Assembly: GCA_965243835.1 (NCBI GenBank)
Contig: OZ251578.1
Coordinates: 277,573 to 341,572, forward strand
Direction: 5' to 3'
Length of the DNA stretch: 64,000 nt
Source: Candidatus Spongiisociaceae bacterium
GTDB taxonomy: Bacteria > Actinomycetota > Acidimicrobiia > Spongiisociales > Spongiisociaceae
This document shows, piece by piece, positions 2,677 to 64,000 of the stretch. Every line of letters begins with the position of its first letter. Position 1 is the first letter of the stretch. A program made the position numbers and the translations under genes. The notes under the pieces were generated by a model that was given only the letters and a program-made list of their open reading frames with translations, was not told the DNA's origin and searched no databases.

Positions 2677-2702
2677 GCGGCCAAGGGGGGAGGTGGGCGG
2701 AC

Positions 2703-2761
2703 GGGGGCTGGCTCGACAAGGGCCGGCCCCCATCTTTTAGGCCTCTTTAGGCCTTTTTTTG
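2703..2761 (+). terminator. Tandem GC hairpins, the second (aggcctctttaggcct) followed by a 7-T run; likely intrinsic terminator of glnII
   Basis: gggggctggc...gccggccccc then aggcc/ggcct stem and ttttttt, immediately after the glnII stop. Confidence 0.45.
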
Positions 2762-2796
2762 GGACTCTTAGGCGGGCGGCCCGGGCCGGAGGTCGC

Positions 2797-3450: not shown

Positions 3451-3618
3451 CGCCTTTAACCATAGTGGGCAACTTGCGTCTAATCAGGATACCACTGAAA
3501 ACCGCAACCGCCGGTCAGCCTCCGCCTGCGTCCGAAACAAGAACGGCGGGAGCGGGACAGCAGCCCCGGCGCCTGTCCTTCCCGTTCCCTGTCGCCGGGG
3601 AATGATATTCTGAATTTT

Positions 3619-4860: not shown

Positions 4861-4873
4861 GAAGCAAGGCTCG

Positions 4874-5752
4874 TTATCGGTCGATCCACAGATGGAAGCA
4901 GGCCGTCCTTACCCAGTGTTTAGCCGCAACACGCCCTTCCTTGCCCTGGTATGAGTTCTTATAGTTCGGGTAGATACGAACGGTGCGGTTGGACGAGATC
5001 CCCCGCACCCTGGCCTGCGCTCTGGGTATCCGAGATCCGCGGTTGGCGCCGGCTTTTCGAAAAATATAGTCGACGATGATGACTTCGTCTGCTTCAAAAG
5101 GGTTGGTTACCTTGACCCATCCCTTGCGCCAGTCGGCGTGCAACACGGTAGGCGCCGGCCATTCGGATTCCGGCTGTCCCAGAAGAGGGACTACCGCGCT
5201 TTTCTGCGTTATCCCATGGGCTACCGCGCGGGCGTAGTGCGCTACACGGTCGGGAGCGGGTTTTTCAACCGTGAGACGCTCCCGGAAATAATCGTACAGC
5301 CGCTCCACCGTACGTTCCTGCGAAGCCCGAACCCCCGCGAAGTCGCCGGCCAGCGCCATGCGACGGCGTTCCTGCATGGGGGCCGCCATGATGGAGTGGA
5401 GTTCCGTTTCATCTTCCATCATCCAGGCCACGGTTGAAATGCCCAGGTTGGCGTCCGTGACCTTTCCCGTCTTGAGCTCGATTTCCCTGTCGGAGCCGAC
5501 GACGGCCAGGTCCGAGCCTTTGATGTTGAGGTCGCTGGTACGGAAATTCGCATCCACTCCGAACATTTCCGCCAGCGTCTGACAAGCCCGTCGGATCCAC
5601 AAGCCCATCTCCTCCGGGGTTTTCCCCTTGAACAGGCCGGGACGGCGCTGGTCGGGCAGACAGGCGAGCCTGGGAACCAGGCCTTGCACGCAGTAGACGG
5701 GCACGGTCATTGCCTGATTGATCAGCCGTTCGAATTCGTCGAAGTTCGGCAT
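4874..5752 (-). CDS. Hypothetical protein convergent with the methyltransferase; candidate Type II restriction endonuclease
   Basis: Convergent, 13 nt from the MTase stop; possible PD-(D/E)XK arrangement GSDLAVVGSDREIELKTGK; no other recognisable domain. Confidence 0.35.
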   Translation of the reverse strand: MPNFDEFERLINQAMTVPVYCVQGLVPRLACLPDQRRPGLFKGKTPEEMGLWIRRACQTLAEMFGVDANFRTSDLNIKGSDLAVVGSDREIELKTGKVTDANLGISTVAWMMEDETELHSIMAAPMQERRRMALAGDFAGVRASQERTVERLYDYFRERLTVEKPAPDRVAHYARAVAHGITQKSAVVPLLGQPESEWPAPTVLHADWRKGWVKVTNPFEADEVIIVDYIFRKAGANRGSRIPRAQARVRGISSNRTVRIYPNYKNSYQGKEGRVAAKHWVRTACFHLWIDR

Positions 5753-5897
5753 AATGACCTCCTGACCTGGGCTTTTGCCGGTTTAGGGCCGGTTGGAAAA
5801 TAGGCGAAACAAGCTACTTGTCTTGGATCTTTTAATGGGGTATGTTGGTTAATGCGGGACAAACGAGCGAGGACGGGGGTGGAAACGGAGGACGGCG

Positions 5898-6719
5898 ATG
5901 TCCGCTTCTAGTTCACCCGAAGCCGGGGATGTGGTCACCGAGCACATCCCCTGGGAACAACTTACCATCCAACCGCCCAAGGACCGCAGGATGCTGTGGT
6001 ACGGGATCGCCGCCGGGGTGCTGGTGGTGGGCCTGCTGGCGGTGGTCATTTCCCGACTGGGCTCGTCGGGGGAGATGCAGCCGGTCATGCCGGCGGCCGC
6101 TCCCGCAGCGGCGGTTGCGCAACCGGCTCCGCCCCCGGCGGCTCCGGACCCGCTGGCGGTCGCCCCGGCGGCGGCCCCCGCTCCGGTTCCGGTGGCGGCT
6201 CCGCTCGCGGAACGGTCCCTGCTGTCGGAGGCCGACTTGATGGCCTCCGGCGGGGATGTTTCCCTGCGGTCGGCGGCGGCCGGCGCCGAATGGTTCGTGC
6301 TGGAGTTCTTCACCCTGGACCCGTCCGAGCCGTGGTTGGAGCGGGTAACCGCGGCTTCCGGGATGAGCATTCCCGCCGCGGCCGCCCCCGTCCCGCCCGG
6401 GGAGGAAACCGTCTCCTATGTGGAGTGGACCCGGGCCCGCTCGGTGGAGCAGATCGGCGCGGACCGCTTCCGGGTGTCGGTGTTGATGAGACGGATGGTC
6501 GCGCGGGACGGGTTGGTCTATCGCCGGCTCCCCGCGGAAGAAGCGGTGGTGGAAATGACTTTGGAGCCGGACGGCGCGGCGCGGGCGGCCTCCTTGCCCG
6601 TTCTGGGCCGCCCGGCGGCGTCGGCGCCCCGGGCACTGTCCCCGGAAACCATCGTGCGCCGTACGGACGAAACCGGCGTGGACTGGCCCGCTTCCGTCTT
6701 GGCGGCCGCCATGAGTTGA
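5898..6719 (+). CDS. Hypothetical Ala/Pro-rich membrane-anchored protein
   Basis: TM segment WYGIAAGVLVVGLLAVVI followed by a PAAAPAAAVAQPAPPPAAP linker; no domain recognised. Confidence 0.45.
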   Translation: MSASSSPEAGDVVTEHIPWEQLTIQPPKDRRMLWYGIAAGVLVVGLLAVVISRLGSSGEMQPVMPAAAPAAAVAQPAPPPAAPDPLAVAPAAAPAPVPVAAPLAERSLLSEADLMASGGDVSLRSAAAGAEWFVLEFFTLDPSEPWLERVTAASGMSIPAAAAPVPPGEETVSYVEWTRARSVEQIGADRFRVSVLMRRMVARDGLVYRRLPAEEAVVEMTLEPDGAARAASLPVLGRPAASAPRALSPETIVRRTDETGVDWPASVLAAAMS

Positions 6720-32642: not shown

Positions 32643-34217
32643 TCATTTTCGGTCCGCCAGGACGGCTTCCAGGGACAGGCCCAAGTCGGAGAGGAGCACC
32701 CGGGCCGCGTTGCGGCCGGGGGCGGCCGAGACGGAACCGCCGGGGTGGGTGGTGGCCCCCGTCTGGTAGAGGCCGGGGAGGGGAGTGCGGTGTCCTGCCC
32801 ATCCCGGAGCGGGCCGCAGGAGCCCGGACTGGGAGGGGTCCATGTCCCCGCCGTGACAGGAACCGTGCCAGTTGTGGGCGTTCATCCGTTCCAGGTCCAG
32901 CGGGCTTTTTACATGGGAGGCCAGAATGCGCTGGTCGGGGAAGGCGGCGTAACGGCGCAGATGCTCCAGGTGGGCCCGGGCCGTCTCCTCTTTTATTTCG
33001 TCCCAATGCCGGGGACCCTCGGCCAGCCGGTAGGGATGAAACCCCACCACCTTCAATGTGTGGCGTCCCGCCGGGGCCCGGTCGGGGTCGGTCACGGTGG
33101 GGCACAGCACCAGCAAGGGCGGGTCGTCCGTGGCCGCCCGCCCGGCGCGGAAATCGTCGGCGATGCGCAACAGCCGCTCCGCGGAGTGGGGGAGGCCCGC
33201 GGCCAGCGGAGCCAGCCCGGACCGGTCGAAGAGAGCCGGGGCGTTGGTGGCGTAGTGGGCGGCGAACATGGCCACTCCCGGTTGCCAGGCGCGCACCGCT
33301 TCCCGGAAATCGGCGTCCCACACCGCGGCGGGGGCCATTTCCGCCAAGTGCTTGATGTGAATGCCGGACAGCACCGCCCGCCGCGCCCGCAATCGCTCCC
33401 CTCCCTCCAACTCCACCCCCGCGCACCGCCCCCCTTCCCGGAGCAGGCCGGTCACCGCCCGCCCGGTGCGGATGACCCCGCCCCCGTCTTCGATCACCCG
33501 GGCCAAAGACAAAGGGAGGGCGGCCGATCCGCCCCGGGGGATGATCCAGGAGTTGGCCTGCCGTCCGTAGGGCAGGGAGAAAGCCAAGCGGGCGGTGCCC
33601 GCCCGTTGCGGGGGTTGCATGGTCATAAAGGCCATCCACAGCAGCGCCGCCCGGGAGGAAGGGTGCCGGAACCGTTCCTCGATGACTTGCAGGGCGGAGC
33701 GATGCCGCAACCGGCGCCAGCGGGCTCCCAGGGGATGGTCGGTCAACCGCTGGTCCAGGTCCGGCCCCCAGCCGAGGGGGGTGTGGTCGAAGGCGGAAAA
33801 CACCCCTTTGATGCGGTCGTATTCCTCGATCAGCGACCGGTAGCCGTCCCCGTCGGAGGGGGACAGGCGGGCGAACTCGGCGCAGGTGGCTTCCAGGTCC
33901 CGCCAGATGGTGATCGAGGTTCCGTCCGGGAAGGGGAGGTGGACCACCGGGTCCGGTTTCAGATATTCCAGGCCGTGTTCCCGCAGTCCCAGTTCATCGT
34001 TGCGCAACATGGGGTTGGATTGAATGATGTTGTGGGCGGTGGAGCAGGTGTCGTGCCGGAAGCCGGGCAGGGTCAGTTCCTCGGAGGCGGTGTCGCCGCC
34101 CACCGTCTCCCGGGCTTCCACCACCGTCACCGACAGCCCGGCCCGCACCAGGTAGGCGGCGGCCGCCAGGTTGTTGTGGCCCGCTCCGGCCACCGCCACG
34201 TCGCAATCGAAACTCAT
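32643..34217 (-). CDS. Phytoene desaturase-family NAD(P)/FAD-dependent oxidoreductase
   Basis: N-terminal DVAVAGAGHNNLAAAAYLVRAGLSVTVVE; C-terminal GLYQTGATTHPGGSVSAAPGRNAA. Confidence 0.75.
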   Translation of the reverse strand: MSFDCDVAVAGAGHNNLAAAAYLVRAGLSVTVVEARETVGGDTASEELTLPGFRHDTCSTAHNIIQSNPMLRNDELGLREHGLEYLKPDPVVHLPFPDGTSITIWRDLEATCAEFARLSPSDGDGYRSLIEEYDRIKGVFSAFDHTPLGWGPDLDQRLTDHPLGARWRRLRHRSALQVIEERFRHPSSRAALLWMAFMTMQPPQRAGTARLAFSLPYGRQANSWIIPRGGSAALPLSLARVIEDGGGVIRTGRAVTGLLREGGRCAGVELEGGERLRARRAVLSGIHIKHLAEMAPAAVWDADFREAVRAWQPGVAMFAAHYATNAPALFDRSGLAPLAAGLPHSAERLLRIADDFRAGRAATDDPPLLVLCPTVTDPDRAPAGRHTLKVVGFHPYRLAEGPRHWDEIKEETARAHLEHLRRYAAFPDQRILASHVKSPLDLERMNAHNWHGSCHGGDMDPSQSGLLRPAPGWAGHRTPLPGLYQTGATTHPGGSVSAAPGRNAARVLLSDLGLSLEAVLADRK

Positions 34218-51144: not shown

Positions 51145-51591
51145 TTAGCGGCGGGAGCGGGCTTGGGTTACCAGGGTGAGGAACTCGGGCACCGGGTAGC
51201 GGCCTATGGCCTCGCCGATCACCTCCAAGGGCAGGTGCTCCAGTTTGCGGAACCGGATGCAACTTTTGCCCATGTCCAGCCGCTTGCCGGTGGCCCGGTA
51301 GGCGTCCAGGAAACTTTCCCGGGCCTGGTCGTCGGCGTACACCCCGGTCAGGTAGACGGCCATGTGATTCTTCTGGGAGGCCAAAGCGGCGTACATCAGC
51401 GGCTGGCCGTTGTAGGTGTCGGGCTGGACGGCCAGCGGCACCTCGTAGGCGATCATCCCCCAGCGCATCGCCTCCTCGTAGCCCTCCGGCAGGTTGGACA
51501 GGATAACGTCCCGCACCGTCCCGATCGCCGCCCGCCGCTCCTCCGGCAACCCGGCCAGATATTCGTCCACCGTGGCCGCGTCCGAACGCAT
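51145..51591 (-). CDS. DUF1801 (YdhG-like) domain protein
   Basis: TVDEYLAGLPEERRAAIGTVRDVIL...GKSCIRFRKLEHLP. Confidence 0.55.
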   Translation of the reverse strand: MRSDAATVDEYLAGLPEERRAAIGTVRDVILSNLPEGYEEAMRWGMIAYEVPLAVQPDTYNGQPLMYAALASQKNHMAVYLTGVYADDQARESFLDAYRATGKRLDMGKSCIRFRKLEHLPLEVIGEAIGRYPVPEFLTLVTQARSRR

Positions 51592-51673
51592 GGCCCGCCT
51601 CCTTTCCGTTGGCTCCGCCGCCCCGCACGCTAGCAGGAGCGCCCGCCGCCCCGCCCTCCGCCGCCGGGCTGGT

Positions 51674-51702
51674 TTGACACCCCGTCCGGATGGTGTAACA
51701 TA
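51674..51702 (+). promoter_or_regulatory. Candidate promoter (-35 ttgaca, -10 taacat) driving the SAM riboswitch
   Basis: ggtttgacaccccgtccggatggtgtaacatag. Confidence 0.35.
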
Positions 51703-51713
51703 GACGGCACGAC

Positions 51714-51800
51714 GCGCTCATCCAGAGCGGTGGAGGGACAGGCCCTGCGAAACCGCGGCAACCGTATGACCGGTGCCAATGCCTGAACGATGAGATAAGC
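51714..51800 (+). promoter_or_regulatory. SAM-I (S-box) riboswitch aptamer
   Basis: ctcatccagagcggtggagggacaggccctgcgaaaccgcggcaaccgtatgaccggtgccaatgcctgaacgatgag matches the S-box consensus (P1 ctcatc/gatgag, GGTGGAGGGAC, GGCAACC, GGTGCCAAT). Confidence 0.7.
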
Positions 51801-51861
51801 CGACGGCGGTAACTCCGCTCGCGGCGCTTCGAGGAGCGCGTAGGACGAGAGGAGAAAAACG

Positions 51862-51966
51862 ATGGGAAACCAACCTCTCCCGACCGCCCCCCTGCGGGGC
51901 GGGGGATTCATGTGTTGTCCGGGCTCTCGGGTGATCCACCCGGGCGGCCCGCAACGTCGCTCGTAA
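51862..51966 (+). CDS. Small ORF (34 aa, MGNQPLPTAPLRGGGFMCCPGSRVIHPGGPQRRS) downstream of the riboswitch with a gaggag RBS; possibly a leader peptide
   Basis: RBS plus ATG only; no homology evidence. Confidence 0.2.
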   Translation: MGNQPLPTAPLRGGGFMCCPGSRVIHPGGPQRRS

Positions 51967-52077
51967 CGAACGCACCACCCGAGAGCAAACCCAAGCCCGC
52001 GGCGGCTTGGCGCGGCGTTCAGAAACCCACCTAAGGGGCCGGGCCCCTCGACCAACCCCGGGCGCGCCCCCTGTTTC

Positions 52078-52104
52078 ACAACTACGCAACTACGCAACTA
52101 CGCA
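52078..52104 (+). repeat. Tandem octamer repeat (caactacg x3) directly upstream of the OsmC-like gene RBS
   Basis: acaactacgcaactacgcaactacgcaa. Confidence 0.8.
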
Positions 52105-52119
52105 AAAGGAGATGATGGA

Positions 52120-52680
52120 ATGACTGTTACGGCAACCCCCGTGGCCAACGGGGTCAACGTGGAAGCCCTGCTGGGGGCCCGGGACGCCCTGGGCGAGACC
52201 CCGGAGGCGGGCCGGTTCACCTGGCGGGCCACCAACGAGTGGGTGCACGGAACCCACAGCCGCTCTTCGGTGGAAGGCTATTTCGGCCTGGGCGAGGAGC
52301 ACAACCACAAGGCGGCCTACGACTTCGAGGCCGATCATCCGCTGGTGTTCGCCGCCGAGGACAACGCGGCCACTCCGGTGGAAATCGTGCTGGTGGGGCT
52401 GGCCAGCTGCCTGACGGCCGGCGTTGCGGCGGTGGCCCAGAACCGGGAAATCCAGTTGCGGTCGGTGAAAGCCACCGTGGAAGGCGACATGGACATCGCC
52501 GGCATCCTGGGGGCCGACCCCGACGTCCGCAACGGGTTCAGCGACATCCGGGTTACCTACGACATCGACGCCGACGGCTCCCCGGAGGACATCCAAGCCT
52601 TGGTGGCCCAAAGCCAGAAGCGGTCGGCGGTGTTCGACATCGTCACCAACCCGACCAACGTGCGCGTCGCGGTCGCCTAG
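52120..52680 (+). CDS. OsmC/Ohr family peroxiredoxin-like protein
   Basis: aaaaggag RBS; LVGLASCLTAGVAAVA with conserved Cys, DIVTNPTNV. Confidence 0.8.
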   Translation: MTVTATPVANGVNVEALLGARDALGETPEAGRFTWRATNEWVHGTHSRSSVEGYFGLGEEHNHKAAYDFEADHPLVFAAEDNAATPVEIVLVGLASCLTAGVAAVAQNREIQLRSVKATVEGDMDIAGILGADPDVRNGFSDIRVTYDIDADGSPEDIQALVAQSQKRSAVFDIVTNPTNVRVAVA

Positions 52681-52687
52681 CCGGACT

Positions 52688-53941
52688 ATGCGCGTCGACG
52701 CGGTCGTAATCGGGGCCGGGCACGCCGGCTTGGCGGTGAGCCGCCTCCTCACCGCCCGCTCCATCGAGCATGTGGTGCTGGAGCGGGGGGAGGTGGCCCA
52801 GTCCTGGCGCACCCAGCGCTGGGATTCGTTGCGGTTGCTCACCCCCAACTGGCTGACCCGCCTGCCCGGTTTGGAATACGACGGCGACGACCCGGACGGG
52901 TTTATGACCATGCCGGAGGTGATCGACTTCATCGACCGCTACGCCCTGCTGGCCGACGCCCCGGTGCGCACCAACACCCGGGTTACCGCCCTGCGCCCCG
53001 CCGACGACGGCTTCCGGGTGGCGACCGACCGGGGGGAGTGGACCTGCCGGACGGCGGTGCTGGCCACCGGCGGGTTCAACCTCCCCCGGGTGCCGCCGCT
53101 GGTGGCGGGGTTTCCCAACTCCATCGACTCGGTTACCCCCTACGATTACCGCCGCCCGTCCGACTTGGCGGAGGGGGGCGTGCTGGTGGTGGGGGCGTCG
53201 GCTACCGGCATCCAACTGGCCGAAGAGATTCACGCCTCCGGGCGGCCGGTCACGTTGGCGGTGGGGGAGCATGTGCGGATGGTGCGCACCTACCGGGGCA
53301 AGGACATCCAATGGTGGATGTTGCGCACCGGCCGGCTGGACGAACGATACGACCAAGTGGAGGACCTGGCCCGGGCCCGGCGGGTCCCCTCCCCGCAGTT
53401 GATCGGTTCCCCGGAGCGGCGCACCCTGGACTTGAACGGCCTCGCCGACCAAGGGGTGCGGCTGGCGGGCCGTCTGGCCGGAGTCTCGGGGTCCACCCTG
53501 CAGTTCTCCGGGTCGTTGCGCAACAAATGCCAACTGGCCGACCTGAAACTGGGGCGGTTGCTGGACGAGTTCGACGAATGGGCCCGGCACGCCGGGCGCA
53601 ACGGGGAGTTCGGCCCCGCCCGCCGCCCGGAGCCGACCCGGGTGGAGGACTCGCCTTTGCTGACCCTGGACTTGTCCCGCGGAGAGATAAAAACGGTGCT
53701 GTGGGCCACCGGCTTCGATCCGGACTATTCCTGGTTGGAGGTCCCGGTCCTGGACCGCAAAGGCCGGTTGCGCCACCAGGGCGGGGTGGTGACCGACTGG
53801 CCCGGGATGTACCGGATCGGGTTGAACTTCCTGCGCCGCCGCAAGTCCAGTTTCATCCACGGCGCGGGAGACGACGCCCGCGACCTGGTGGACCACTTGG
53901 AGCGCCACCTGCGCCGCCGGGTCCCGGCCGGAGTGTGCTGA
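52688..53941 (+). CDS. FAD-dependent oxidoreductase (flavin monooxygenase-like)
   Basis: VDAVVIGAGHAGLAVSRLL, second dinucleotide motif VLVVGASATGIQLAEEI. Confidence 0.7.
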   Translation: MRVDAVVIGAGHAGLAVSRLLTARSIEHVVLERGEVAQSWRTQRWDSLRLLTPNWLTRLPGLEYDGDDPDGFMTMPEVIDFIDRYALLADAPVRTNTRVTALRPADDGFRVATDRGEWTCRTAVLATGGFNLPRVPPLVAGFPNSIDSVTPYDYRRPSDLAEGGVLVVGASATGIQLAEEIHASGRPVTLAVGEHVRMVRTYRGKDIQWWMLRTGRLDERYDQVEDLARARRVPSPQLIGSPERRTLDLNGLADQGVRLAGRLAGVSGSTLQFSGSLRNKCQLADLKLGRLLDEFDEWARHAGRNGEFGPARRPEPTRVEDSPLLTLDLSRGEIKTVLWATGFDPDYSWLEVPVLDRKGRLRHQGGVVTDWPGMYRIGLNFLRRRKSSFIHGAGDDARDLVDHLERHLRRRVPAGVC

Positions 53942-54107
53942 AACCGACTCCCGGGGGGCCGCCGCAGACAGGACGGCGCCCCTCCCTCATTTCCGAAGAG
54001 CCCCTGAACCGCTAGTTGGCCGTTTGCCACGGGTAAAATGTCACAGGGGCGGGTTATGTTGAAAGCAGGTTACGGGAAATACCCGTGGACCTCCCGGGAA
54101 AGGAGGC

Positions 54108-57086
54108 ATGATGGCCCAGGCGGGAGCGAGGACGGCGGAGATGGCCGGCAGGGTTATCTCCGGGCAAGCCGAGGACGACATCAGAGCCGCCCTGCGCAAC
54201 CTGTTAGAAGAGATGGGCGCCGCACGCGCCGCGCAACTTTCGTTCGCCGGCGGCGATGAAGCGGATATGGTGATTGAGGAGTGGTCCGTCGTCATCGAGA
54301 CCAAAAGCAAGGGCATTAGCGACTTCTCGGCTCCGGGTAGCGGAAGCCGCGTCGGGGAAACCGCTTTTGATCAACTGGGCCGTTATCATGGTCATTTGGA
54401 TGGCCTTCCCGAATACACGCAACAAAAGGGTAGTTGGCTAGGTGTTATTACCAACGGCAGACGGTGGTCGACGCGGATCTGGTCGGATCAGGGCGCGGTG
54501 GAGCTGGCAAGCGATCGGGAGTTTCTGCCGGGAAACGAAGCCGCCTTGATAGAATGGTTGTCTAACTTGTTGATAGAAAGGCGAAAGTATCAACCTTTCC
54601 CATCGGATCCGGGTGAAGTATTTAATCCTTTTGCCAACGAACTTTTGATGATGACCCAGACGGACTGGCCTAATTCTCAAAAGAAATCCTATGCTACGCA
54701 AAAGGATTTGTGGCTGGAAATACTTGAAGGATCAGGTATGGGGGTAGTTACCGACGAGGAAGCTTTGTTTCGCCGTCATTGTTTTCTAGTATCGCTAGCG
54801 CGAGCGGTGGAAGCGTCTATGGAGAAGGACCCTCCCCCTGTTCTTGATTCAAATAGGATGGTGGGATTTTCATCTTGGGTGGCAGAAACGAATGATGGTA
54901 GAGAGTGGTTGGATAAAATGTACAAACAAGTGCTTTCTTATGATTGGCAGAATACAGGTCGTGACGCTTTACGTGAAGTGTATGAAACAACCGTAGACAA
55001 AAGAAACCGGCACGCGTTTGGAGAATACTATACCCCTGGTTGGGTGGCGGCTATGGTGGTAGAGCGGGTATTGGATGATGACTGGCTCAGCCGCTGTTTA
55101 ACGGCCGGTGAGAGCCCTCAGCCCGGCTACGGTGTTCTGGATCCCGCTTGTGGTTCCGGCACCTTTTTGTATCATGCGGCCAAAAGAATATACTCTTATT
55201 TGAACACCGCACCGGACGCATCCCGGCTACTGGATGTACAGAAGGCGGATATTGTGGCTAATCTGGTTGTGGGAATAGATATTCATCCGGTTGCAGTGGA
55301 GTTGGCGAAGATTACGTTGCTCACGGCCTTTCCGCCCGGGGTTTCACCTCGCAGGGGAAAAGACGCCCTGAGGGTTTTCCAAGGGGATGCGTTGCTGGCT
55401 GATTGGCAGACGCATGCCCTGTTTCGTAATCCCGAGTTGGAAGGCGAATTATATGAGTTTGAATCACCTCAAGGAAGAGAATATTTTATACCTCGCTTTT
55501 TTGCCCTCCGGCCTGAATTTGGGCAACAGATTAAGACGATGTTGGATGCTGTTATTCGCGGCGATCATCTTCCCCGGCATTTGTTGGAAGGTGACGAAAG
55601 TTTGGATCAGTTGTTATTGGAAAGTTATGATACTCTAAAAACTCTCGTACAAGTAGAGCAAAATGGGGTTTGGGCGTGGCGTATTTTCAATTCCGTATCT
55701 CCGCTACTGCTCTCCTTAACCAAGGTAGATAGAATTGTGGCTAACCCACCGTGGGTGGTAATGTCTTCTATACAAGATCGCCGGAAAAGGGTTTGCGAAA
55801 GCCTGCTTAAAGATCATCAACTTTGGCCTGGAAAGAATTTGGCCGCTAAAACCAATCTGGCGGCTCTTTTCGTATTCCGTACGGCAGTCGAATATTTACA
55901 CTATAAACGAAAAGGAAATTTCGCCTGCGGTTGGGTACTTCCCTGGGGATCTTTGCAAGGTGAAAACTGGGGGTTTTTGCGAGAGAAGATTAGTCCCGAA
56001 ACACTAGATTTGGGCGATGTCAAACAGCCTCCTTTTACTGGTGATGTGTCCTGTGTTTGGTTTGAAGGATCTGCTATAACCGATGATAAATTAAATAAGA
56101 TAGCTAATAACGTTTCCGGCCAAATTGTGTCGCGCGATGCCGACGATTGGAGTTTAGCCCAAACCAGACTCAGAATTTCAACAGCTGAAATACCCCGCCA
56201 AGAAACTTCCGGCTACTACGACGGGAAAAAATCATTGTTTAGGCAAGGTGCCTCCCTTGTACCTCATACCCTGGTCAAGATACAAGAATCTCGGACGTCG
56301 CCATCCGGAAACGACCGTTTGTTAATTACAACGGCCGCCAGCGTAAAAGGTGTCTGGGCCAATATCTCTCCTCATAAAGACCAAGAGATTCCAAAAAGAT
56401 GGTCCAAGGAAACCGCGGGGGGAGAACACCTGCTTCCCTTCGTATTAAGGATGCCCTTTGATAGATTCGTCATCCCTGTTAACTCTACGGGGAAGAATCT
56501 AATGTCGGAATCAGCATCATTGCAAGAAGAATATTGGTGGAACGCCAACAAGGATTATTCCGAAAATGCGGGGGGCGGACAGAGCACTCCTAGAACTTTA
56601 TATTCCCAAATAGATCATCATCAAAAATTGTCTTCTCAATTATCAAGGAAAGATGGTTGGGTAGTAACCTACAATAAATCTGGTTCTAGATTAAGGTCCG
56701 CCCGTACTAATAAACGCCGTTTAATACTTATGGATCAGCTTTATTGGTATACGTGCGACTCCGAGGAGGAGTCTGGATACCTGGTTAGTTTGATGAACTC
56801 TGATTACCTACAGGTACATTTTAGATACGCAAAAACCTCCTGGCGTGATTTTCATACCAACCCCTGGAAAAAGGTGCCGATACCAAAGTACGACCCTGGC
56901 GACGCTACTCACCGAAAACTGGCGAATCTGTGTTTGGATGCCGAAAGTATCGCCATGGGATTTCTCCGGAGTAGCACCGCCCGGGGCTTGGGGCAGCCGG
57001 CAACTTCCAAATTGATAAGAGCCGAGATCGTCGAAAACGGCCTGATGGCGGCAATAGACAACCAGGTCGAAAAAATAATTCCCTAA
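54108..57086 (+). CDS. Type IIG/IIL-like fused restriction endonuclease - N6-adenine DNA methyltransferase (MmeI-like architecture)
   Basis: N-terminal HsdR_N/Mrr-like PD-(D/E)XK (GGDEADMVIEEWSVVIETKSKG...GVITNGRRWSTRIW). MTase motif X EYYTPGWV, motif I VLDPACGSGTFLY, motif IV IVANPPWV. Long C-terminal putative specificity region. About 45% GC after a GC-rich first 300 nt. Confidence 0.7.
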   Translation: MMAQAGARTAEMAGRVISGQAEDDIRAALRNLLEEMGAARAAQLSFAGGDEADMVIEEWSVVIETKSKGISDFSAPGSGSRVGETAFDQLGRYHGHLDGLPEYTQQKGSWLGVITNGRRWSTRIWSDQGAVELASDREFLPGNEAALIEWLSNLLIERRKYQPFPSDPGEVFNPFANELLMMTQTDWPNSQKKSYATQKDLWLEILEGSGMGVVTDEEALFRRHCFLVSLARAVEASMEKDPPPVLDSNRMVGFSSWVAETNDGREWLDKMYKQVLSYDWQNTGRDALREVYETTVDKRNRHAFGEYYTPGWVAAMVVERVLDDDWLSRCLTAGESPQPGYGVLDPACGSGTFLYHAAKRIYSYLNTAPDASRLLDVQKADIVANLVVGIDIHPVAVELAKITLLTAFPPGVSPRRGKDALRVFQGDALLADWQTHALFRNPELEGELYEFESPQGREYFIPRFFALRPEFGQQIKTMLDAVIRGDHLPRHLLEGDESLDQLLLESYDTLKTLVQVEQNGVWAWRIFNSVSPLLLSLTKVDRIVANPPWVVMSSIQDRRKRVCESLLKDHQLWPGKNLAAKTNLAALFVFRTAVEYLHYKRKGNFACGWVLPWGSLQGENWGFLREKISPETLDLGDVKQPPFTGDVSCVWFEGSAITDDKLNKIANNVSGQIVSRDADDWSLAQTRLRISTAEIPRQETSGYYDGKKSLFRQGASLVPHTLVKIQESRTSPSGNDRLLITTAASVKGVWANISPHKDQEIPKRWSKETAGGEHLLPFVLRMPFDRFVIPVNSTGKNLMSESASLQEEYWWNANKDYSENAGGGQSTPRTLYSQIDHHQKLSSQLSRKDGWVVTYNKSGSRLRSARTNKRRLILMDQLYWYTCDSEEESGYLVSLMNSDYLQVHFRYAKTSWRDFHTNPWKKVPIPKYDPGDATHRKLANLCLDAESIAMGFLRSSTARGLGQPATSKLIRAEIVENGLMAAIDNQVEKIIP

Positions 57087-57105
57087 GACCGGTTGCCGGA
57101 AGAGG

Positions 57106-57663
57106 TCATGGAGGGCTTGGCGGGCGGCTCCGACTCCGCACATTCCGCGCACGCCGGGCCCGGGCGGGGCCCAGGGCCCCGGCGGCGATGTCCCCGCCCC
57201 GGTAGTTGGGGTTGTATTCCTCCAGGTCGGCGGGGGTCAGCACATTGCGGGCCAGCATCGCGTCGCCGAAGCCGGGCGCGTACCGCTCGATTTGCCCCTC
57301 GATCAGTTCCCACATCGCAGGACCCTCCCGGGACTCATCGCGATACCCGTTGGGAACCTGGGCGTACGCCCAGGTGGTGTGGCGCCCCGGCGGGGCCCGG
57401 CCGGGATCGAATAGGCTTTGCTGGCCGACCAGAACGAAGGGATGCCGCGCCGCCCGCCCCGCGGCTACGGAGCGCAGGGCGGCGTCTACCTCCCCGGCTT
57501 CGCCTCCCAGATGCACCACCCCCGCCCGATGGCATTCGGGAGCGGTCCACGGGATGGGCGCGGCCAAGGCGTAGTCCGCTTTGTAGCAAGAGGGTGACAA
57601 CGTTGCCGTTTTGCCGCCTCCCGCTCCTAGTTCAACACGAGGATGGGCGCCAGGTCCAGGCAA
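57106..57663 (-). pseudogene. Remnant (C-terminal ~185 aa) of a phytoene desaturase-family FAD oxidoreductase, lacking the N-terminal FAD-binding domain and with a corrupted 3' end
   Basis: DPGRAPPGRHTTWAYAQVP...IERYAPGFGDAMLARNVLTPADLEEYNPNYRGGDI matches the C-terminal block of the intact paralog at 32643-34217; no Rossmann N-terminus upstream. Confidence 0.45.
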
Positions 57664-57750: not shown

Positions 57751-58836
57751 TCAGGCGACATCGGCGGCGGATGTTGCGACGGGCGGGTTCCGGCGGTCCG
57801 CCAGCCGGGGCGTAGCCTGCGGTGAAGGAGGCGGGTCGGCGCGCAATGCGGACACCGCATTCACCTTGCGTTGCAACACGTTGGTGCGGGTGGAGGTTAG
57901 AGCTCCAAAAGACTTGTTCAAGGCGTTCAAGTCTTTTTCCACTTTGTTCGCCGCTACAATGTAGAGGTCCCATTGTTGTTCAAATTCGGATACCGCCTTG
58001 ATAATTTCCTGTCCGTGGGCCACCATCTGGAACGCGTCCATAACACTGCGGATCATCATCAGAATCGGAAACAGGTTGGCGGGTGAACACAAAACTACCT
58101 TGCGGGTTTCCGTGTATCGCACCAGGGAATTCTTCTGTTGCAAGATGATGCCCCACACCGATTCCACCGGGATGAACAGCAACGTGAACCCCACCCCGTC
58201 CTCATCTTGAACGTATCCCCGCTTTGTTATCGTTTTGACATGGCGATCTACATCAGACATAAACCGTTTTAGATGTTGATCCGCCTCCGGTTTGGTTTCG
58301 GCTTCCGCGTAGCGGCGGTAGTTGTCCAGCGGGAATTTGACATCCATATGCAACACCTTACCCTCCGGTAGCAGGAAAGTGAAGTCGGGCTTTGTACCGT
58401 TGGCTATTTTTGCCTGCTTGCGGTAGTTGACCTCTTCCATCATCCCCGCCGCCCGGATTACGTCCTCCGCCATCCGCTCCCCCCAGAGTCCCCGGTTTCG
58501 GGAATCATCCAGCAGGTTCTGCAACTGGCCGGTAGCGGCGGTCAGGGCGTCGTTGCTTTTGGCCACCTCCGACAGCCGTTCCCCGGTTTTCCCGCCTTGT
58601 TCCGCCAAGTCTTTCATCAGGCCTTGCACCTTGTCCAGCGATTCGCGCATCTGTTCGCGAACCCCTTCCAGGCCGGTCGTCAGGCCGGCGCTCAAAGCCG
58701 CCAGCGGGTCCGGGGCCGGGATCGCCTCCGCCGCTTCCCTCCGCCGGTTGCGTTTCCGCAGGGCGCTTGCCGTCCACCAAACCGCCGGCGCAACCAGCAG
58801 GATAAAGAGCGCAATGCCGATAATGGTGGCATCCAT
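57751..58836 (-). CDS. rmuC: DNA recombination protein RmuC
   Basis: N-terminal TM helix, coiled-coil, C-terminal RmuC block (LLFIPVESVWG...VVLCSPANLFPILMMI). Confidence 0.8.
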   Translation of the reverse strand: MDATIIGIALFILLVAPAVWWTASALRKRNRRREAAEAIPAPDPLAALSAGLTTGLEGVREQMRESLDKVQGLMKDLAEQGGKTGERLSEVAKSNDALTAATGQLQNLLDDSRNRGLWGERMAEDVIRAAGMMEEVNYRKQAKIANGTKPDFTFLLPEGKVLHMDVKFPLDNYRRYAEAETKPEADQHLKRFMSDVDRHVKTITKRGYVQDEDGVGFTLLFIPVESVWGIILQQKNSLVRYTETRKVVLCSPANLFPILMMIRSVMDAFQMVAHGQEIIKAVSEFEQQWDLYIVAANKVEKDLNALNKSFGALTSTRTNVLQRKVNAVSALRADPPPSPQATPRLADRRNPPVATSAADVA

Positions 58837-59087
58837 AGTTGCATCCTCCTTTGCCAATCGGGGCATGTATTGCCGATGTAAGGCAGTGTAAAGAGGGGGT
58901 GTGACAAACGGACGGCTATTCCCGTAACAGCCCCCGTTCCATGGAGGTGACATCCCTTTCAGGTTTCATCACCGGGGCGGCTGTGCACTTAGGGACGATT
59001 TAGCGGAGCTCCGATTACCTAGGAGGGAGACGATCGCGGCCGCGTGGGTGCTGGATGATGTGGATGCGGCCCGGCCCGGCGCGCCGA

Positions 59088-59729
59088 TTACCCTAGGAGG
59101 GCGACGATCGCGGCGCCCAATATTAGGGCCGCCGCCATTAGAACCGTTAAGCCAAACACGGATAGGCATCCCCGTTTGGGGGAACCGGTTTGGTATTGAT
59201 AGCCTGGTCGCTCCCGTTTCGAATACTGTGATGTCGTGCTTTCGGATTCCAAATACCCTTTGATGCGGTCTGCGGCGGAGGAGGCTTTGGAATGTATTTC
59301 CTCCAACGCCGCGAGCAGATTGGGCGTTTCCCGGTCGGCGGTTGCCGCCATCATCTCAAAGTTATGACGCATTCCCTGCTTGGTAAGGTTGGCCGACCCC
59401 AACAAGACGGCGCTTTTTGTCCGACCCTTGACAATCCAAGCCTTAGCGTGGGCGATAGATTCCCCGCCCGCCGTGTTTTTGCTGTACCAGTTCAATACAT
59501 TGACATCCCGGCGGTCAAGGAACTCCAAGGCTGTTTCATTGTCTTCTTCCGTAGCCTTGTCGAAACGGAACCGTTTGGCTTCACCGATAATCAGCGTTAC
59601 GGGCCGGCCGATGGTGCGCTTATGCAACCAGGCCAACCCCCAGACGCTGGTGTATCCGGTCAGAACAAACAGGCGGCCATGCGGATGCTCATCCAGGAAC
59701 TTGATGATGCGGTCTTCAGCGTTGGGCAT
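59088..59729 (-). CDS. Phospholipase D-like (single HKD motif) nuclease-family protein with C-terminal TM anchor
   Basis: HKD motif HAKAWIVKGRTKSAVLLGSANLT; C-terminal LSVFGLTVLMAAALILGAAIVALLG. Confidence 0.6.
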   Translation of the reverse strand: MPNAEDRIIKFLDEHPHGRLFVLTGYTSVWGLAWLHKRTIGRPVTLIIGEAKRFRFDKATEEDNETALEFLDRRDVNVLNWYSKNTAGGESIAHAKAWIVKGRTKSAVLLGSANLTKQGMRHNFEMMAATADRETPNLLAALEEIHSKASSAADRIKGYLESESTTSQYSKRERPGYQYQTGSPKRGCLSVFGLTVLMAAALILGAAIVALLG

Positions 59730-59764
59730 ATGGCGTCCTTTCGGTTAGGGGAGTCGGGGAGATT

Positions 59765-60538
59765 TTAGCGGGCGGTCCAGCCGCCGTCCACGGGCAACAC
59801 CGTTCCGGTGATGTAACTGGCGGCGTCGGAGGCGAGGAACAAGGCCGCCCCTTGGATTTCACATAGCTCCCCCCACCGTTTCAAGGCCACATCCTGGTTT
59901 ATAACCCGCACTGCGTGCGGGGTGTGTTGATGGTCGATGTTGAGGGCGGTGAGGAAGGGGCCGGGGGCGATGGCGTTGACCAGTACGCCGGCGTCCGCCC
60001 ATTCCATGGCCAGGGCCCGGGTGAGTTGGATGATCGCCCCTTTGCTGGTGGTGTAGGCGGTGCGGTCGGCCACTCCCACCAGTCCGAAAGTGGAGGAAAT
60101 GTTTACGACCCTCCCCTGGCCGGATTTTTTGAGGTGCGGGGCGGCGGCTTTGCACATCGCCCACGCCCCGGTCAGGTTGACCGCCATGGAACGTTCAAAA
60201 TCGGCTCGGCTGATTTCGTCTATGGGGCCGCGCACGATGATGCCCGCGTTGTTGACCAGAATGTCAAGGCCGCCCAGTTCGTCCGCCGTCCGGGCGACCG
60301 CCCGGGTTGCGTCCTCGTCCAAACTCACATCTCCCGGAATGGCGATGACCGTCCCGCCGGTGGTTTCCCCGATCCGCCGGGCGGTGTCGCTCAGGGTTTG
60401 CGGGTTGCGGCTCATCACGGCCACGGACGCCCCCGCCCAAGACAGGGCTTCGGCGATCGCCTCCCCCAACCCTTGAGACCCCCCGGTAACCAAAGCCGCC
60501 CGCCCCGTCAGCCGAAACATTTCAAGAGGATTTTCCAA
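59765..60538 (-). CDS. SDR family oxidoreductase
   Basis: TGGSQGLGEAIAEAL, NNAG, catalytic YTTSKGA. Confidence 0.85.
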   Translation of the reverse strand: MENPLEMFRLTGRAALVTGGSQGLGEAIAEALSWAGASVAVMSRNPQTLSDTARRIGETTGGTVIAIPGDVSLDEDATRAVARTADELGGLDILVNNAGIIVRGPIDEISRADFERSMAVNLTGAWAMCKAAAPHLKKSGQGRVVNISSTFGLVGVADRTAYTTSKGAIIQLTRALAMEWADAGVLVNAIAPGPFLTALNIDHQHTPHAVRVINQDVALKRWGELCEIQGAALFLASDAASYITGTVLPVDGGWTAR

Positions 60539-60682: not shown

Positions 60683-63600
60683 GCCGCAATGAGGGAGGGG
60701 CGAATTCGCCCCTCGTAGGTACGATTATTTTTGGATATGGCATTCACCCGTTTCTGCCGCAATGAGGGAGGGGCGAATTCGCCCCTCGTAGGCCGGCGAT
60801 CCAGTCCGGGTTGGCGGCGGCGGCGGTGCCGCAATGAGGGAGGGGCGAATTCGCCCCTCGTAGGCCGAAGCCGAACGCCGATAATGACCCCCCAACGCCA
60901 GCCGCAATGAGGGAGGGGCGAATTCGCCCCTCGTAGCCAACCATAAGTTTTTGGTGTTGTCCTGGTCTTCCGGGCCGCAATGAGGGAGGGGCGAATTCGC
61001 CCCTCGTAGGGTAGACCCAAGACGCCGCCGCTACATCGTATACGAGCCGCAATGAGGGAGGGGCGAATTCGCCCCTCGTAGAACCGGTTCCCCGGGGTTC
61101 GCCGCCGGCGCGGGTCGGCCGCAATGAGGGAGGGGCGAATTCGCCCCTCGTAGGAATCTCGTCCGTGTCCGGTTCCACCGGGATCACCTGCCGCAATGAG
61201 GGAGGGGCGAATTCGCCCCTCGTAGCCTTACGAACTGCGTGAAATGGCCGAGCGGGGGAAGCCGCAATGAGGGAGGGGCGAATTCGCCCCTCGTAGTCGG
61301 GAATGCTCTTTCCGGCTCGTTCGGCTTCTTCCACGCCGCAATGAGGGAGGGGCGAATTCGCCCCTCGTAGCGCCCCCCCCGGCCTATCCCGCCCGAACCC
61401 CTACCCGGCCGCAATGAGGGAGGGGCGAATTCGCCCCTCGTAGTGCCATCATTGACGTGTTTGTCAACAAGGTAGAAATCAAGCCGCAATGAGGGAGGGG
61501 CGAATTCGCCCCTCGTAGTCCGCCCGTTAGAGGCTTCTACGCCGGCTTCTATCGCGCCGCAATGAGGGAGGGGCGAATTCGCCCCTCGTAGCCACAAGAA
61601 ATCACCCAACACCTGCCCCACACTTCCGGCCGCAATGAGGGAGGGGCGAATTCGCCCCTCGTAGCCGCCGGACGGGGGGGTGGTAGATTCTTGGTTGTCA
61701 TGCCGCAATGAGGGAGGGGCGAATTCGCCCCTCGTAGGGCCGGGTTTTATGATGTGTCTCCATAGCCAGAAGGCGCCGCAATGAGGGAGGGGCGAATTCG
61801 CCCCTCGTAGGGGGCATTGGGGGACGGCTTCTAGCCGATGGGGGACTGCCGCAATGAGGGAGGGGCGAATTCGCCCCTCGTAGGGATTTGCCGAGGCCTC
61901 CCCTAACCGGATACCAGCCGCCGCAATGAGGGAGGGGCGAATTCGCCCCTCGTAGCCTCCTCCGCGGCCTCTGCGGTAGGCCTGCGGGAGCGGGCCGCAA
62001 TGAGGGAGGGGCGAATTCGCCCCTCGTAGCCGGCGCATCAGCTCTGGGAAGGTGTCCGCCCTCGTGCCGCAATGAGGGAGGGGCGAATTCGCCCCTCGTA
62101 GGAAGACCCCATCACCTTCACCTGCCCATCCACAACCCGCCGCAATGAGGGAGGGGCGAATTCGCCCCTCGTAGTCTATAGGCTCAGCAATGAAGTTGTT
62201 AGTTCCTACGCAGCCGCAATGAGGGAGGGGCGAATTCGCCCCTCGTAGTAAGAAACCTCGTTCCCTTCCCCGCCGATAATATAGGGCCGCAATGAGGGAG
62301 GGGCGAATTCGCCCCTCGTAGACCCGGACGATCCGGGCGGGGGCAACCCTCCCCCGGTGCCGCAATGAGGGAGGGGCGAATTCGCCCCTCGTAGGCGGGC
62401 GGTAAAGCGAGCGGTGAGGGCTCCACGAACAAGCCGCAATGAGGGAGGGGCGAATTCGCCCCTCGTAGCTCCGCGTAATCCTTCGCGGCCGAATCGCATA
62501 GACGAGCCGCAATGAGGGAGGGGCGAATTCGCCCCTCGTAGAGACACTGGCCGGATTACCATCGCTGGCCTGGGCGGTGCCGCAATGAGGGAGGGGCGAA
62601 TTCGCCCCTCGTAGTGGCCTGATGGCCTGGCGATCTCGCCGATGTCGGCCTGCCGCAATGAGGGAGGGGCGAATTCGCCCCTCGTAGACGGGCGGGTAAG
62701 TTGCGTGATATTGGCTCTTTCGTTGCCGCAATGAGGGAGGGGCGAATTCGCCCCTCGTAGGCAAACCGGCTCCCCCCGGCGCCAACCAGTGAAAGGGCCG
62801 CAATGAGGGAGGGGCGAATTCGCCCCTCGTAGATTTGCGGGGCAAGCCACTCCGCCGCCGTGTCCGGGCTGCCGCAATGAGGGAGGGGCGAATTCGCCCC
62901 TCGTAGGGCCCCGATACACTGTCCGCCAGCTGCTCCTGGAGCCGGCCGCAATGAGGGAGGGGCGAATTCGCCCCTCGTAGGGTGGGGGCTTTGCCGGGGG
63001 AACAAATGGGACTATTCGGGCCGCAATGAGGGAGGGGCGAATTCGCCCCTCGTAGCGCCATCACCGCCATCACCGACCTACTCACCACCCTGCCGCAATG
63101 AGGGAGGGGCGAATTCGCCCCTCGTAGACGCCCTGGCCGAGAGCGCAGTGTCCTTGATGCCCGCGCCGCAATGAGGGAGGGGCGAATTCGCCCCTCGTAG
63201 GTTTTATAGTTCATTCTTGGCCTTCGTTCTTATCCAGGCCGCAATGAGGGAGGGGCGAATTCGCCCCTCGTAGGGGCTTGTCCGTCTTCGTCTATCGTCC
63301 CTTCCGGGTAGCCGCAATGAGGGAGGGGCGAATTCGCCCCTCGTAGGAGCAGAAGCGGAGGGGGCTGGGGGGGAGGGGGAGACGCCGCAATGAGGGAGGG
63401 GCGAATTCGCCCCTCGTAGTCACCGCCCCGCCAATCACCGCCCCCCGCCACCGCCCGCCGCAATGAGGGAGGGGCGAATTCGCCCCTCGTAGGCGCTGGA
63501 GCGAGGGAAGCGTATCCGGCCTCATATCCGGCCGCAATGAGGGAGGGGCGAATTCGCCCCTCGTAGTTCCGGGTCGGCGGCGACCCGGCGGGCGGCTTGG

Positions 63601-64000
63601 TCGCCGCAATGAGGGAGGGGCGAATTCGCCCCTCGTAGGGGTGGATCAGCCGCTGAACGAGTTGCTGGTGGACAGGCCGCAATGAGGGAGGGGCGAATTC
63701 GCCCCTCGTAGTCGGGGAGCATTGCGCTCCCCCCTCATTGAAGCGGTGCCGCAATGAGGGAGGGGCGAATTCGCCCCTCGTAGAACACATCCCCCGACAA
63801 CCCATACTCCTGGCTAACGTGCCGCAATGAGGGAGGGGCGAATTCGCCCCTCGTAGACGTCCTTTCTTGTTAGGGTTTTATTCCCCTCCGTTGGCCGCAA
63901 TGAGGGAGGGGCGAATTCGCCCCTCGTAGTAGGACCACCCTCGTTGCCGGGCCGCCTGGTTAGCGAGCCGCAATGAGGGAGGGGCGAATTCGCCCCTCGT
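60683..64000. CRISPR. CRISPR array: 36-bp repeat GCCGCAATGAGGGAGGGGCGAATTCGCCCCTCGTAG, 46 repeats (last truncated by the window end), 45 spacers of 34-41 bp
   Basis: Repeat starts located by eye at 60683, 60756, 60828, 60901, 60974 ... 63967, period about 73 bp; the repeat contains a perfect 16-nt palindrome GGGGCGAATTCGCCCC; no cas genes in the window. Confidence 0.95.

What the first reader, a model, noticed from the sequence alone, without database searches (positions are those of the whole stretch)
54108..57663. AT-rich Type IIG-like fused endonuclease-methyltransferase inserted next to a decayed oxidoreductase gene
A 992-aa single polypeptide combines an N-terminal Mrr/HsdR_N-like PD-(D/E)XK domain, gamma-class N6-adenine MTase motifs (YYTP, DPACGSGTFLY, NPPW) and a long C-terminal putative specificity region. 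It is markedly AT-rich compared with its flanks. Twenty nt beyond its stop, a convergent ORF (57106-57663) retains only the C-terminal third of a phytoene-desaturase-family oxidoreductase, with a scrambled end. The arrangement is consistent with the RM gene, or a later event, having destroyed that gene.
Basis: partly seen in the sequence, partly recalled or inferred. Interest (0 to 1): 0.5.

Follow-up and report, generated by a model that had tools for sequence, protein, structure and literature searches.

The report
Horizontally acquired single-chain restriction-modification gene
A sponge-associated actinobacterium has picked up a stand-alone gene for an enzyme that both methylates and cuts DNA at a specific site, landing at the very end of an oxidoreductase gene that is now a dead remnant; this is a well-known kind of defence enzyme and is ordinary.

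Summary
ORF 54108-57086 (+) encodes an intact 992-aa protein with 49% GC (GC3 0.49), against GC3 of about 0.90 in its flanks.

It has the full architecture of a Type IIG/IIL restriction-modification enzyme:
- a helical spacer;
- a gamma-class N6-adenine methyltransferase with GEYYTP, DPACGSG and NPPW invariant in 120/120;
- a C-terminal target-recognition region; the methyltransferase-plus-recognition module superposes on CamA, M.BseCI, DrdV and MmeI.

It stands alone among housekeeping genes in five unrelated loci and is under purifying selection (dN/dS 0.12-0.18).

In the closest genome (L007, Ca. Spongiisociaceae), the 3,157 bp at 53934-57090 are replaced by 64 bp. An intact 481-aa FAD oxidoreductase sits there, convergent with the flavoprotein gene.

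The window keeps only about 143 in-frame residues of that oxidoreductase. The RM insertion removed just its last four codons and stop. The bulk was lost through a 76-bp frameshifting deletion and a 5' truncation at a rearrangement junction next to RmuC.

Verdict: a new member of a known kind, from an uncharacterised subfamily outside the MmeI family proper. Interest is low.

The parts
53934..57090 (+). Segment absent from the closest genome. These 3,157 bp replace 64 bp (L007 11247-11310) between the convergent flavoprotein and oxidoreductase genes.
   Evidence: blastn of window against L007: 51147-53933 aligns with L007 8473-11246 (86%), and 57091-57170 aligns with L007 11311-11390 (82.5%).
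54020..54107 (+). Conserved leader of about 90 nt that travels with the gene. It contains a Shine-Dalgarno-like GGAAAGGAGG just upstream of the ATG.
   Evidence: The alignment of window/L001 with L002/L003 (a different chromosomal locus) becomes conserved from about [30 protein letters not shown] onward. The sequence was read.
54108..57086 (+). 992-aa single-chain Type IIG/IIL-like restriction-modification enzyme (stop codon included).
54108..54587 (+). PD-(D/E)XK nuclease domain, residues 1-160. Catalytic D53 is at 54264-54266 and E64-T-K66 at 54297-54305. Also QxxxY (89-93) and TNG (115-117).
54588..54962 (+). Helical spacer, residues 161-285, connecting the nuclease to the methyltransferase.
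   Evidence: Helices 168-181, 189-209, 217-237, 253-276 in the model. The profile aligns in register with MmeI residues 284-375 directly after its 156-300 spacer (domain limits from PMC4833311).
54963..55967 (+). [quoted passage not shown] GEYYTP is at 55020-55037, motif I LDPACGSGTFL at 55137-55169, motif IV NPPW at 55743-55754.
   Evidence: Pfam N6_Mtase 5e-10 and PADLOC REase_MTase_IIG 2.9e-40. Motifs invariant in 120/120 homologues. Coordinates.
55968..57083 (+). Target-recognition region (about residues 621-880) and C-terminal helical bundle (about 881-992).
57091..57585 (-). Pseudogene remnant of a CrtI/amine-oxidase-family FAD oxidoreductase. The mechanical ORF 57106-57663 overlaps it. 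It keeps about residues 280-422 of 481 in frame, plus the last 21 codons (57090-57152) in another frame.
   Evidence: tblastn of the L007 orthologue: 74% identity over 143 aa at 57594-57169, and 76% over 21 aa at 57152-57090. 76-bp deletion relative to L007. The N-terminal FAD-binding part is absent, although L007 has it. L001 has lost a further 259 bp.

Best explanation
The 992-aa protein is a stand-alone, single-polypeptide Type IIG/IIL restriction-modification enzyme.

Inferred mechanism, by analogy with MmeI, DrdV and BpuSI:
- The C-terminal recognition region and the methyltransferase domain clamp a short, probably asymmetric DNA site and flip out one adenine.
- On host DNA, that adenine is N6-methylated using AdoMet.
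- On unmodified incoming DNA, molecules bound at several sites bring their N-terminal PD-(D/E)XK domains together. Each domain has a single active site (D53/E64/K66). Together they cut both strands at a fixed distance from the site, set by the helical spacer.
- Because one recognition domain serves both activities, no separate methylase or specificity gene is needed.

History of the locus:
- The gene arrived by horizontal transfer as a bare cassette of about 3.1 kb (a 90-nt leader plus the ORF).
- It landed at the extreme 3' end of a convergent FAD oxidoreductase gene in a sponge-associated Acidimicrobiia (Ca. Spongiisociaceae-like) chromosome.
- That oxidoreductase is now a pseudogene. It lost its last four codons and stop at the insertion junction. 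It then (order unknown) lost 76 bp internally and its 5' two-thirds, at a rearrangement junction with the RmuC-PLD-SDR block.

Shown here: architecture, folds, motif conservation, solitary context, foreign composition, purifying selection, the empty site in a relative, and the pseudogene status.
Inferred only: enzymatic activities, recognition sequence, cleavage distance, single-strand methylation, and the order of the decay events.
For: - Intact ORF with foreign composition.
- Methyltransferase motifs and family hits.
- More than 1,200 full-length homologues of about 1,000 aa. D53/E64/K66/Q89/Y93 are each kept in at least 110 of 120, and GEYYTP/DPACGSG/NPPW are invariant.
- High-confidence models.
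- MmeI is the best PDB sequence match of the family profile, in register (3e-5).
- MmeI and DrdV domain order and mechanism come from PMC4833311, PMC2731913 and bioRxiv 10.1101/2021.01.06.425610.
- No conserved partner genes in five unrelated contexts.
- 82-85% identical copies sit between two tRNA-Met genes in other contigs. The shared DNA is limited to the leader plus the ORF.
- dN/dS 0.12-0.18 overall and below 0.5 in every domain.
- Empty site and intact oxidoreductase in L007, and in L009, L022, L024 and L025.
- Remnant mapping.
Against: - No activity, methylome or recognition sequence is available.
- Pfam has no model that recognises the N-terminal or the recognition region. Those assignments therefore rest on predicted structure plus motif conservation.
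- The nuclease domain is the least constrained part: dN/dS 0.3-0.5 against L002/L003, with only 65-75% identity.
- The first 190 bp of the ORF are 65% GC, unlike the rest. This is unexplained.
- No integrase, transposase, target-site duplication or terminal repeats flank the cassette. The transfer mechanism is therefore unknown.
- L007 is only 82-86% identical in DNA, so the exact ancestral 3' end of the oxidoreductase is uncertain.
Confidence: 0.84

Rival explanations
1. It is effectively an orphan or regulatory adenine methyltransferase, and its N-terminal nuclease domain is vestigial or repurposed (for example for DNA binding or oligomerisation only).
Against: The catalytic D...ExK triad plus QxxxY is retained in at least 110 of 120 homologues. 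The domain folds as a canonical nuclease closest to active Type IIG/IIL nuclease domains. It remains under purifying selection (dN/dS below 0.5). CamA and BseCI lack any such domain.
Confidence: 0.07
2. It is the methyltransferase/specificity component of a multi-gene defence system. Candidates are BREX PglX, MADS MAD2, DISARM DrmMI, or a system shared with the neighbouring RmuC and PLD nuclease genes.
For: Weak hits to PglX, MAD2 and DrmMI models. A DrmC-like PLD nuclease and an RmuC gene lie 0.7-2.6 kb downstream. PglX/BrxX is among the top structural matches.
Against: All system-specific NCBIfam scores are far below cutoff: PglX 32 against 400, MAD2 32 against 720, DrmC 32 against 133. No brx, pglZ, drmA/B or mad genes are nearby. 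Copies 82-85% identical, and more distant homologues, occur without RmuC or PLD in four other contexts. The SDR-PLD-RmuC block occurs without this gene in L090. PglX has no N-terminal PD-(D/E)XK nuclease, whereas this protein does.
Confidence: 0.04
3. The gene is a recently acquired passenger that is not expressed or is inactive in this host. Type IIG genes are often found disrupted or silent.
For: Codon usage is very different from the host's (GC3 0.49 against 0.90). No sigma-70-like promoter was detected upstream. The MmeI family paper reports several naturally disrupted homologues.
Against: The ORF is intact with all motifs. The syntenic orthologue in L001 differs at 7% of residues with dN/dS 0.18, which indicates selection since the insertion. 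A strong Shine-Dalgarno sequence and a conserved leader are retained. The promoter scan is uninformative for Actinomycetota.
Confidence: 0.05

Closest known systems
MmeI (Type IIL; PDB 5HR4) and the MmeI family
   Different: Only about 12-14% identity. Pfam MmeI_Mtase scores below its gathering score (23.7 against 27). MmeI_N, MmeI_hel, MmeI_TRD and MmeI_C do not hit. Recognition site and cleavage distance are unknown.
DrdV (Type IIL; PDB 7LO5) and BpuSI (Type IIG; PDB 3S1S)
   Different: Sequence identity is 10-15%. The family profile barely detects DrdV (E 0.17). Oligomerisation-dependent cleavage, as in DrdV, is inferred here and not shown.
CamA and M.BseCI / M.TaqI-type gamma-class adenine methyltransferases
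   Different: They lack the N-terminal nuclease and helical spacer and are pure methylases.
BREX PglX/BrxX
   Different: PglX is about 1,200 aa, has no PD-(D/E)XK nuclease, and works only with BrxA/B/C, PglZ and BrxL. None of those is present here, and scores are far below cutoff.

Membership tests
Type IIG/IIL single-chain restriction-modification enzymes | N-terminal PD-(D/E)XK nuclease domain with catalytic D...(D/E)XK | tested here: met
Type IIG/IIL single-chain restriction-modification enzymes | Gamma-class N6-adenine methyltransferase in the same polypeptide (motif order X, I, IV with NPPY/F/W) | tested here: met
   GEYYTP 305-310, DPACGSG 345-351 and NPPW 546-549 are invariant in 120/120. 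Pfam N6_Mtase 5e-10 and PADLOC REase_MTase_IIG 2.9e-40.
Type IIG/IIL single-chain restriction-modification enzymes | Fused C-terminal target-recognition domain shared by both activities | tested here: met
   This was tested at fold level only. The region after the methyltransferase superposes with the recognition domains of CamA (465 of 547 residues), BseCI and MmeI (565 of 751). No Pfam model hits it.
Type IIG/IIL single-chain restriction-modification enzymes | Self-sufficient: no separate methylase, specificity or helicase gene required or adjacent | tested here: met
   Neighbours are unrelated housekeeping genes in the window/L001, L002/L003, L087, L088 and L089.
Type IIG/IIL single-chain restriction-modification enzymes | AdoMet-dependent site-specific methylation, and cleavage at a fixed distance from the site | not testable with these tools
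   Needs enzyme assays or methylome data.
MmeI family sensu stricto (Pfam MmeI_N, MmeI_hel, MmeI_Mtase, MmeI_TRD, MmeI_C) | Significant matches to the MmeI-specific domain models across the whole protein | tested here: not met
   Only MmeI_Mtase hits, at 23.7 bits against a gathering score of 27, covering residues 343-405. No hit to the other four models. The profile against the MmeI sequence reaches only E 3e-5 over 87 residues.
BREX PglX | Score above the NCBIfam equivalog cutoff, and presence of BREX partner genes | tested here: not met
   BREX_2_MTaseX scores 32.2 bits against a cutoff of 400, and BREX_1 18.8 against 500. No brx or pglZ genes in any of the five contexts.
MADS MAD2 / DISARM DrmMI | Score above the family cutoff, and the system's partner genes | tested here: not met
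   MAD2 scores 32.1 against 720. The nearby PLD scores 32 against 133 for DrmC. The RM gene occurs without PLD/RmuC elsewhere, and PLD/RmuC occur without it.
CrtI/amine-oxidase-family FAD oxidoreductase (for ORF 57106-57663) | Full-length protein of about 480-520 aa with an N-terminal FAD-binding Rossmann domain | tested here: not met
   The window retains only about residues 280-422 in frame, and has no Pfam hit. The L007 orthologue has NAD_binding_8 and Amino_oxidase domains. The window copy is therefore a pseudogene.

The most novel reading that the evidence does not exclude
This family may be an uncharacterised subfamily of Type IIL-like enzymes. Only 384 clusters at 50% identity carry this particular N-terminal nuclease domain among 1.84 billion representatives. 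The subfamily could have its own recognition sequences and cleavage geometry. Its members also appear to spread as a naked 'leader plus ORF' cassette into unrelated chromosomal sites. One copy lies at a gene's 3' end here; another lies between duplicated tRNA-Met genes elsewhere. No recombinase or repeats have been recognised, which hints at an unknown mode of RM gene mobility.
Probability: 0.25. Interest if true: 0.35.

Novelty: new member of a known kind. Interest (0 to 1): 0.2.

Why it matters
Mostly as annotation. A protein that public records label only 'N-6 DNA methylase' is very probably a complete restriction-modification enzyme.

The locus is also a clean natural example, with the empty site in hand, of a single-gene RM cassette inserting into a symbiont chromosome, alongside collateral decay of a gene. 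Sponge symbionts are already known to be enriched in RM and CRISPR defences (PMC5649159), so this fits the expected pattern.

Practical value would come only if the subfamily yields new recognition specificities for enzyme engineering, as the MmeI family did.

Tried and rejected
- Pfam on six N-terminal fragments at E up to 10 gave no meaningful hit. The only result was a faint PDDEXK_9 match at 0.074 in one sequence.
- A phmmer search of the single sequence against PDB gave nothing significant. Only the family profile reached MmeI.
- My first comparison with the paralogue used the wrong strand and was meaningless; it was redone.
- My first script picked a spurious overlapping ORF for the L007 oxidoreductase; this was corrected.
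- I searched for direct or inverted repeats, or an inverted copy of the oxidoreductase 3' end, flanking the insertion. None scored above shuffled controls (p 0.12-0.9).
- The promoter/terminator scan found nothing upstream and is uninformative.
- There are no homopolymer or short tandem repeats suggesting phase variation.
- Close relatives were sought in viral contigs and JGI metagenomes; none were found. The family profile in viral contigs found only 23-28% identical relatives, and their matches start after the nuclease domain.
- The idea that RM, RmuC and PLD form one system was rejected on context grounds.
Full report
**Observation.** The window has a 992-codon ORF at 54108-57086 on the plus strand. 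Sliding-window GC drops from 0.67-0.72 to 0.44-0.52 across it. Gene GC is 0.49 and GC3 0.49. The two upstream genes, OsmC and a Pyr_redox_3 flavoprotein, have GC3 0.90-0.91. Nineteen nucleotides after the stop, a convergent 185-codon ORF (57106-57663, minus strand) begins its C-terminal end.

**What the large protein is: sequence evidence.**
- Pfam sees only the start of an N6_Mtase domain (5e-10), plus sub-threshold MmeI_Mtase and Eco57I.
- The best PADLOC model is REase_MTase_IIG (2.9e-40, residues 281-617).
- NCBIfam hits to BREX PglX and MADS MAD2 are more than ten-fold below their cutoffs.
- A database search returned more than 1,200 homologues. Nearly all are about 1,000 aa and align end to end. 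Where named at all, they are called 'N-6 DNA methylase' or 'SAM-dependent DNA methyltransferase'.
- In an alignment of 120 of them, the methyltransferase motifs are invariant.
- The N-terminal residues are kept as follows: D53 in 113, E64 in 110 (plus 4 D), K66 in 114, Q89 in 117, Y93 in 114. The remainder are mostly gaps.
- The pattern D-x10-E-x-K followed by QxxxY and T-x-G is that of HsdR-N/MmeI-type PD-(D/E)XK nucleases. MmeI has D70-x9-E80-x-K82 (PMC2731913).
- The family profile finds MmeI as its best PDB sequence, in register (profile 289-375 against MmeI 284-375, E 3e-5).

**Structure.**
- AlphaFold2 with the 120-sequence alignment gave a confident full-length model (pLDDT 92, pTM 0.85).
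[quoted passage not shown] This is the topology described for MmeI-family nuclease domains.
- The methyltransferase and the region after it therefore form the usual gamma-class methyltransferase-plus-recognition module.
- The domain order and boundaries parallel those of MmeI: nuclease 1-155, spacer 156-300, methyltransferase 301-620, recognition domain 621-825, helical bundle 826-919 (PMC4833311).

**Context and selection.**
- The gene has no conserved partner.
- The 93% orthologue sits in a syntenic contig (L001).
- The 85% and 82% copies (L002; L003-L006) lie in a different locus, after a UPF0182 gene and between two tRNA-Met genes.
- A 50% homologue lies between selB and whiB (L087). More distant ones lie among unrelated housekeeping genes (L088, L089).
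- DNA shared between the two loci of the close copies starts about 90 nt upstream of the ATG and ends at the stop codon. The mobile unit is therefore essentially leader plus ORF.
- No integrase, repeats or target duplication were found.
- Pairwise dN/dS is 0.18 (L001), 0.12 (L002) and 0.15 (L003). Every domain is below 0.5, and the nuclease domain is the least constrained.
- A profile of the nuclease domain alone finds only 384 cluster representatives among 1.84 billion. Among the 150 listed, the match always starts near the N-terminus, and about half are about 900-1,060 aa; the shorter ones may be fragments.
- Plasmid-borne relatives are 24-28% identical and annotated 'N-6 DNA methylase', once 'restriction endonuclease BseRI'.
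- No close relative is phage-borne.

**Host and the empty site.**
- The flanking flavoprotein places the window in sponge-associated Acidimicrobiia. The best genome hit is a Candidatus Spongiisociaceae chromosome (L007, 85%).
- In L007, OsmC and the flavoprotein are followed, 38 bp later, by a convergent intact oxidoreductase of 481 aa. It carries NAD_binding_8 and Amino_oxidase domains.
- The same adjacency is seen in L009, L022, L024 and L025.
- At the DNA level, window 51147-53933 matches L007 8473-11246 and window 57091-57170 matches L007 11311-11390. Thus 3,157 bp (53934-57090) replace 64 bp.

**The decayed gene.**
- The window retains L007-orthologue residues about 280-422 at 74% identity, and the last 21 codons in a different frame.
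- Between these, 76 bp present in L007 (11391-11466) are missing, which shifts the frame after GGDIAAGA.
- L007 ends ...FRQPPPPD-stop. The window reads ...FRQP and then runs straight into the antisense of the RM gene's 3' end. The RM insertion therefore removed only the last four codons and the stop.
- The 5' 825 bp or so, which encode the FAD-binding domain, are gone. Homology stops at 57585, 165 bp from the RmuC stop.
- L001 has lost a further 259 bp (57368-57626), as expected for a neutral remnant.
- The downstream SDR-PLD-RmuC block is itself lineage-native rather than part of the cassette. It recurs at 63% PLD identity in another sponge Acidimicrobiia contig that lacks this RM gene (L090).
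- L007 is not collinear with the window beyond this point. The 5' truncation therefore coincides with a rearrangement junction.
The refinement is that most of the damage was not done by the RM insertion.
- The paralogue at 32643-34217 (minus strand) is only 35% identical over 111 aa and is not the relevant comparator.

**Mechanism (inferred).** By analogy with MmeI, BpuSI and DrdV:
- The recognition region and methyltransferase bind a specific, probably asymmetric site and flip one adenine for N6-methylation.
- Unmodified DNA with several sites recruits further molecules.
- Their single-active-site nuclease domains pair up to cut both strands at a distance set by the helical spacer.
- One recognition domain for both activities explains why the gene can move and function alone.

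None of the enzymology is shown here.

**Classification and novelty.**
- All sequence- and structure-testable features of Type IIG/IIL enzymes are met.
- The MmeI-family-specific Pfam models, BREX PglX, MADS MAD2 and DISARM are tested and not met.
- The protein is therefore a new member of a known kind, belonging to an uncharacterised, modest-sized subfamily.
- RM enrichment in sponge symbionts is already documented (PMC5649159).
- A specialist would not be surprised, so interest is low (0.2).

Noticed in passing
window 60683-64000 (runs off the window end): A large CRISPR array of about 46 copies of the 36-nt repeat GCCGCAATGAGGGAGGGGCGAATTCGCCCCTCGTAG, with a period of about 73 nt. The 676-aa ORF at 61184-63214 is an artefact of the array. 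No cas genes were looked for in the window.
   Followed up: partly
L001 16262-16298 and 16746-18266: The syntenic contig keeps a single CRISPR repeat, followed by phage-like genes (HK97-type Peptidase_S78 prohead protease). This is probably a collapsed array or an assembly join through a spacer.
   Followed up: no
window 57751-60538 (minus strand): RmuC (400 aa), a small PLD-family nuclease (213 aa, HKD motif, DrmC/NgoFVII-like) and an SDR form a block with intermediate GC (GC3 0.66-0.79). The SDR-PLD-RmuC order recurs at 63% PLD identity in another sponge Acidimicrobiia contig (L090). A PLD homologue in L093 lies about 3 kb after cas4/cas1-cas2, and in L092 the PLD gene stands alone. This may be a PLD-RmuC nuclease pair with a defence role, located next to CRISPR arrays.
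   Followed up: partly
L002 7340-7417 and 10747-10824; L003 8987-9064 and 12272-12349: In other contigs, the 82-85% identical RM gene lies exactly between two tRNA-Met(CAT) genes. This suggests insertion into, or duplication of, a tRNA-Met locus.
   Followed up: partly
window 54108-54300: The first 190 bp or so of the RM ORF are 65% GC, against 46-50% for the rest. The nuclease domain is only 65-75% identical to the L002/L003 copies, while the methyltransferase is 89-92% identical. The nuclease domain also has lower dS and higher dN. This could reflect local amelioration or a recombination patch.
   Followed up: no
window 1-6700 and 51147-53933 against L007 832-7538 and 8473-11246: About 44 kb of the window (6.7-51.1 kb, including ribosomal-protein/NusG/SecE genes according to L001) is not collinear with the closest genome, L007. 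The RM locus therefore lies beside a large rearrangement breakpoint.
   Followed up: no
L087 6001-9582 and L090 5814-7284: A 50% identical RM homologue (L087) and the RmuC end of the SDR-PLD-RmuC block (L090) each abut the same whiB-nfeD neighbourhood in different sponge Acidimicrobiia contigs. This suggests a recurrent variable spot.
   Followed up: no
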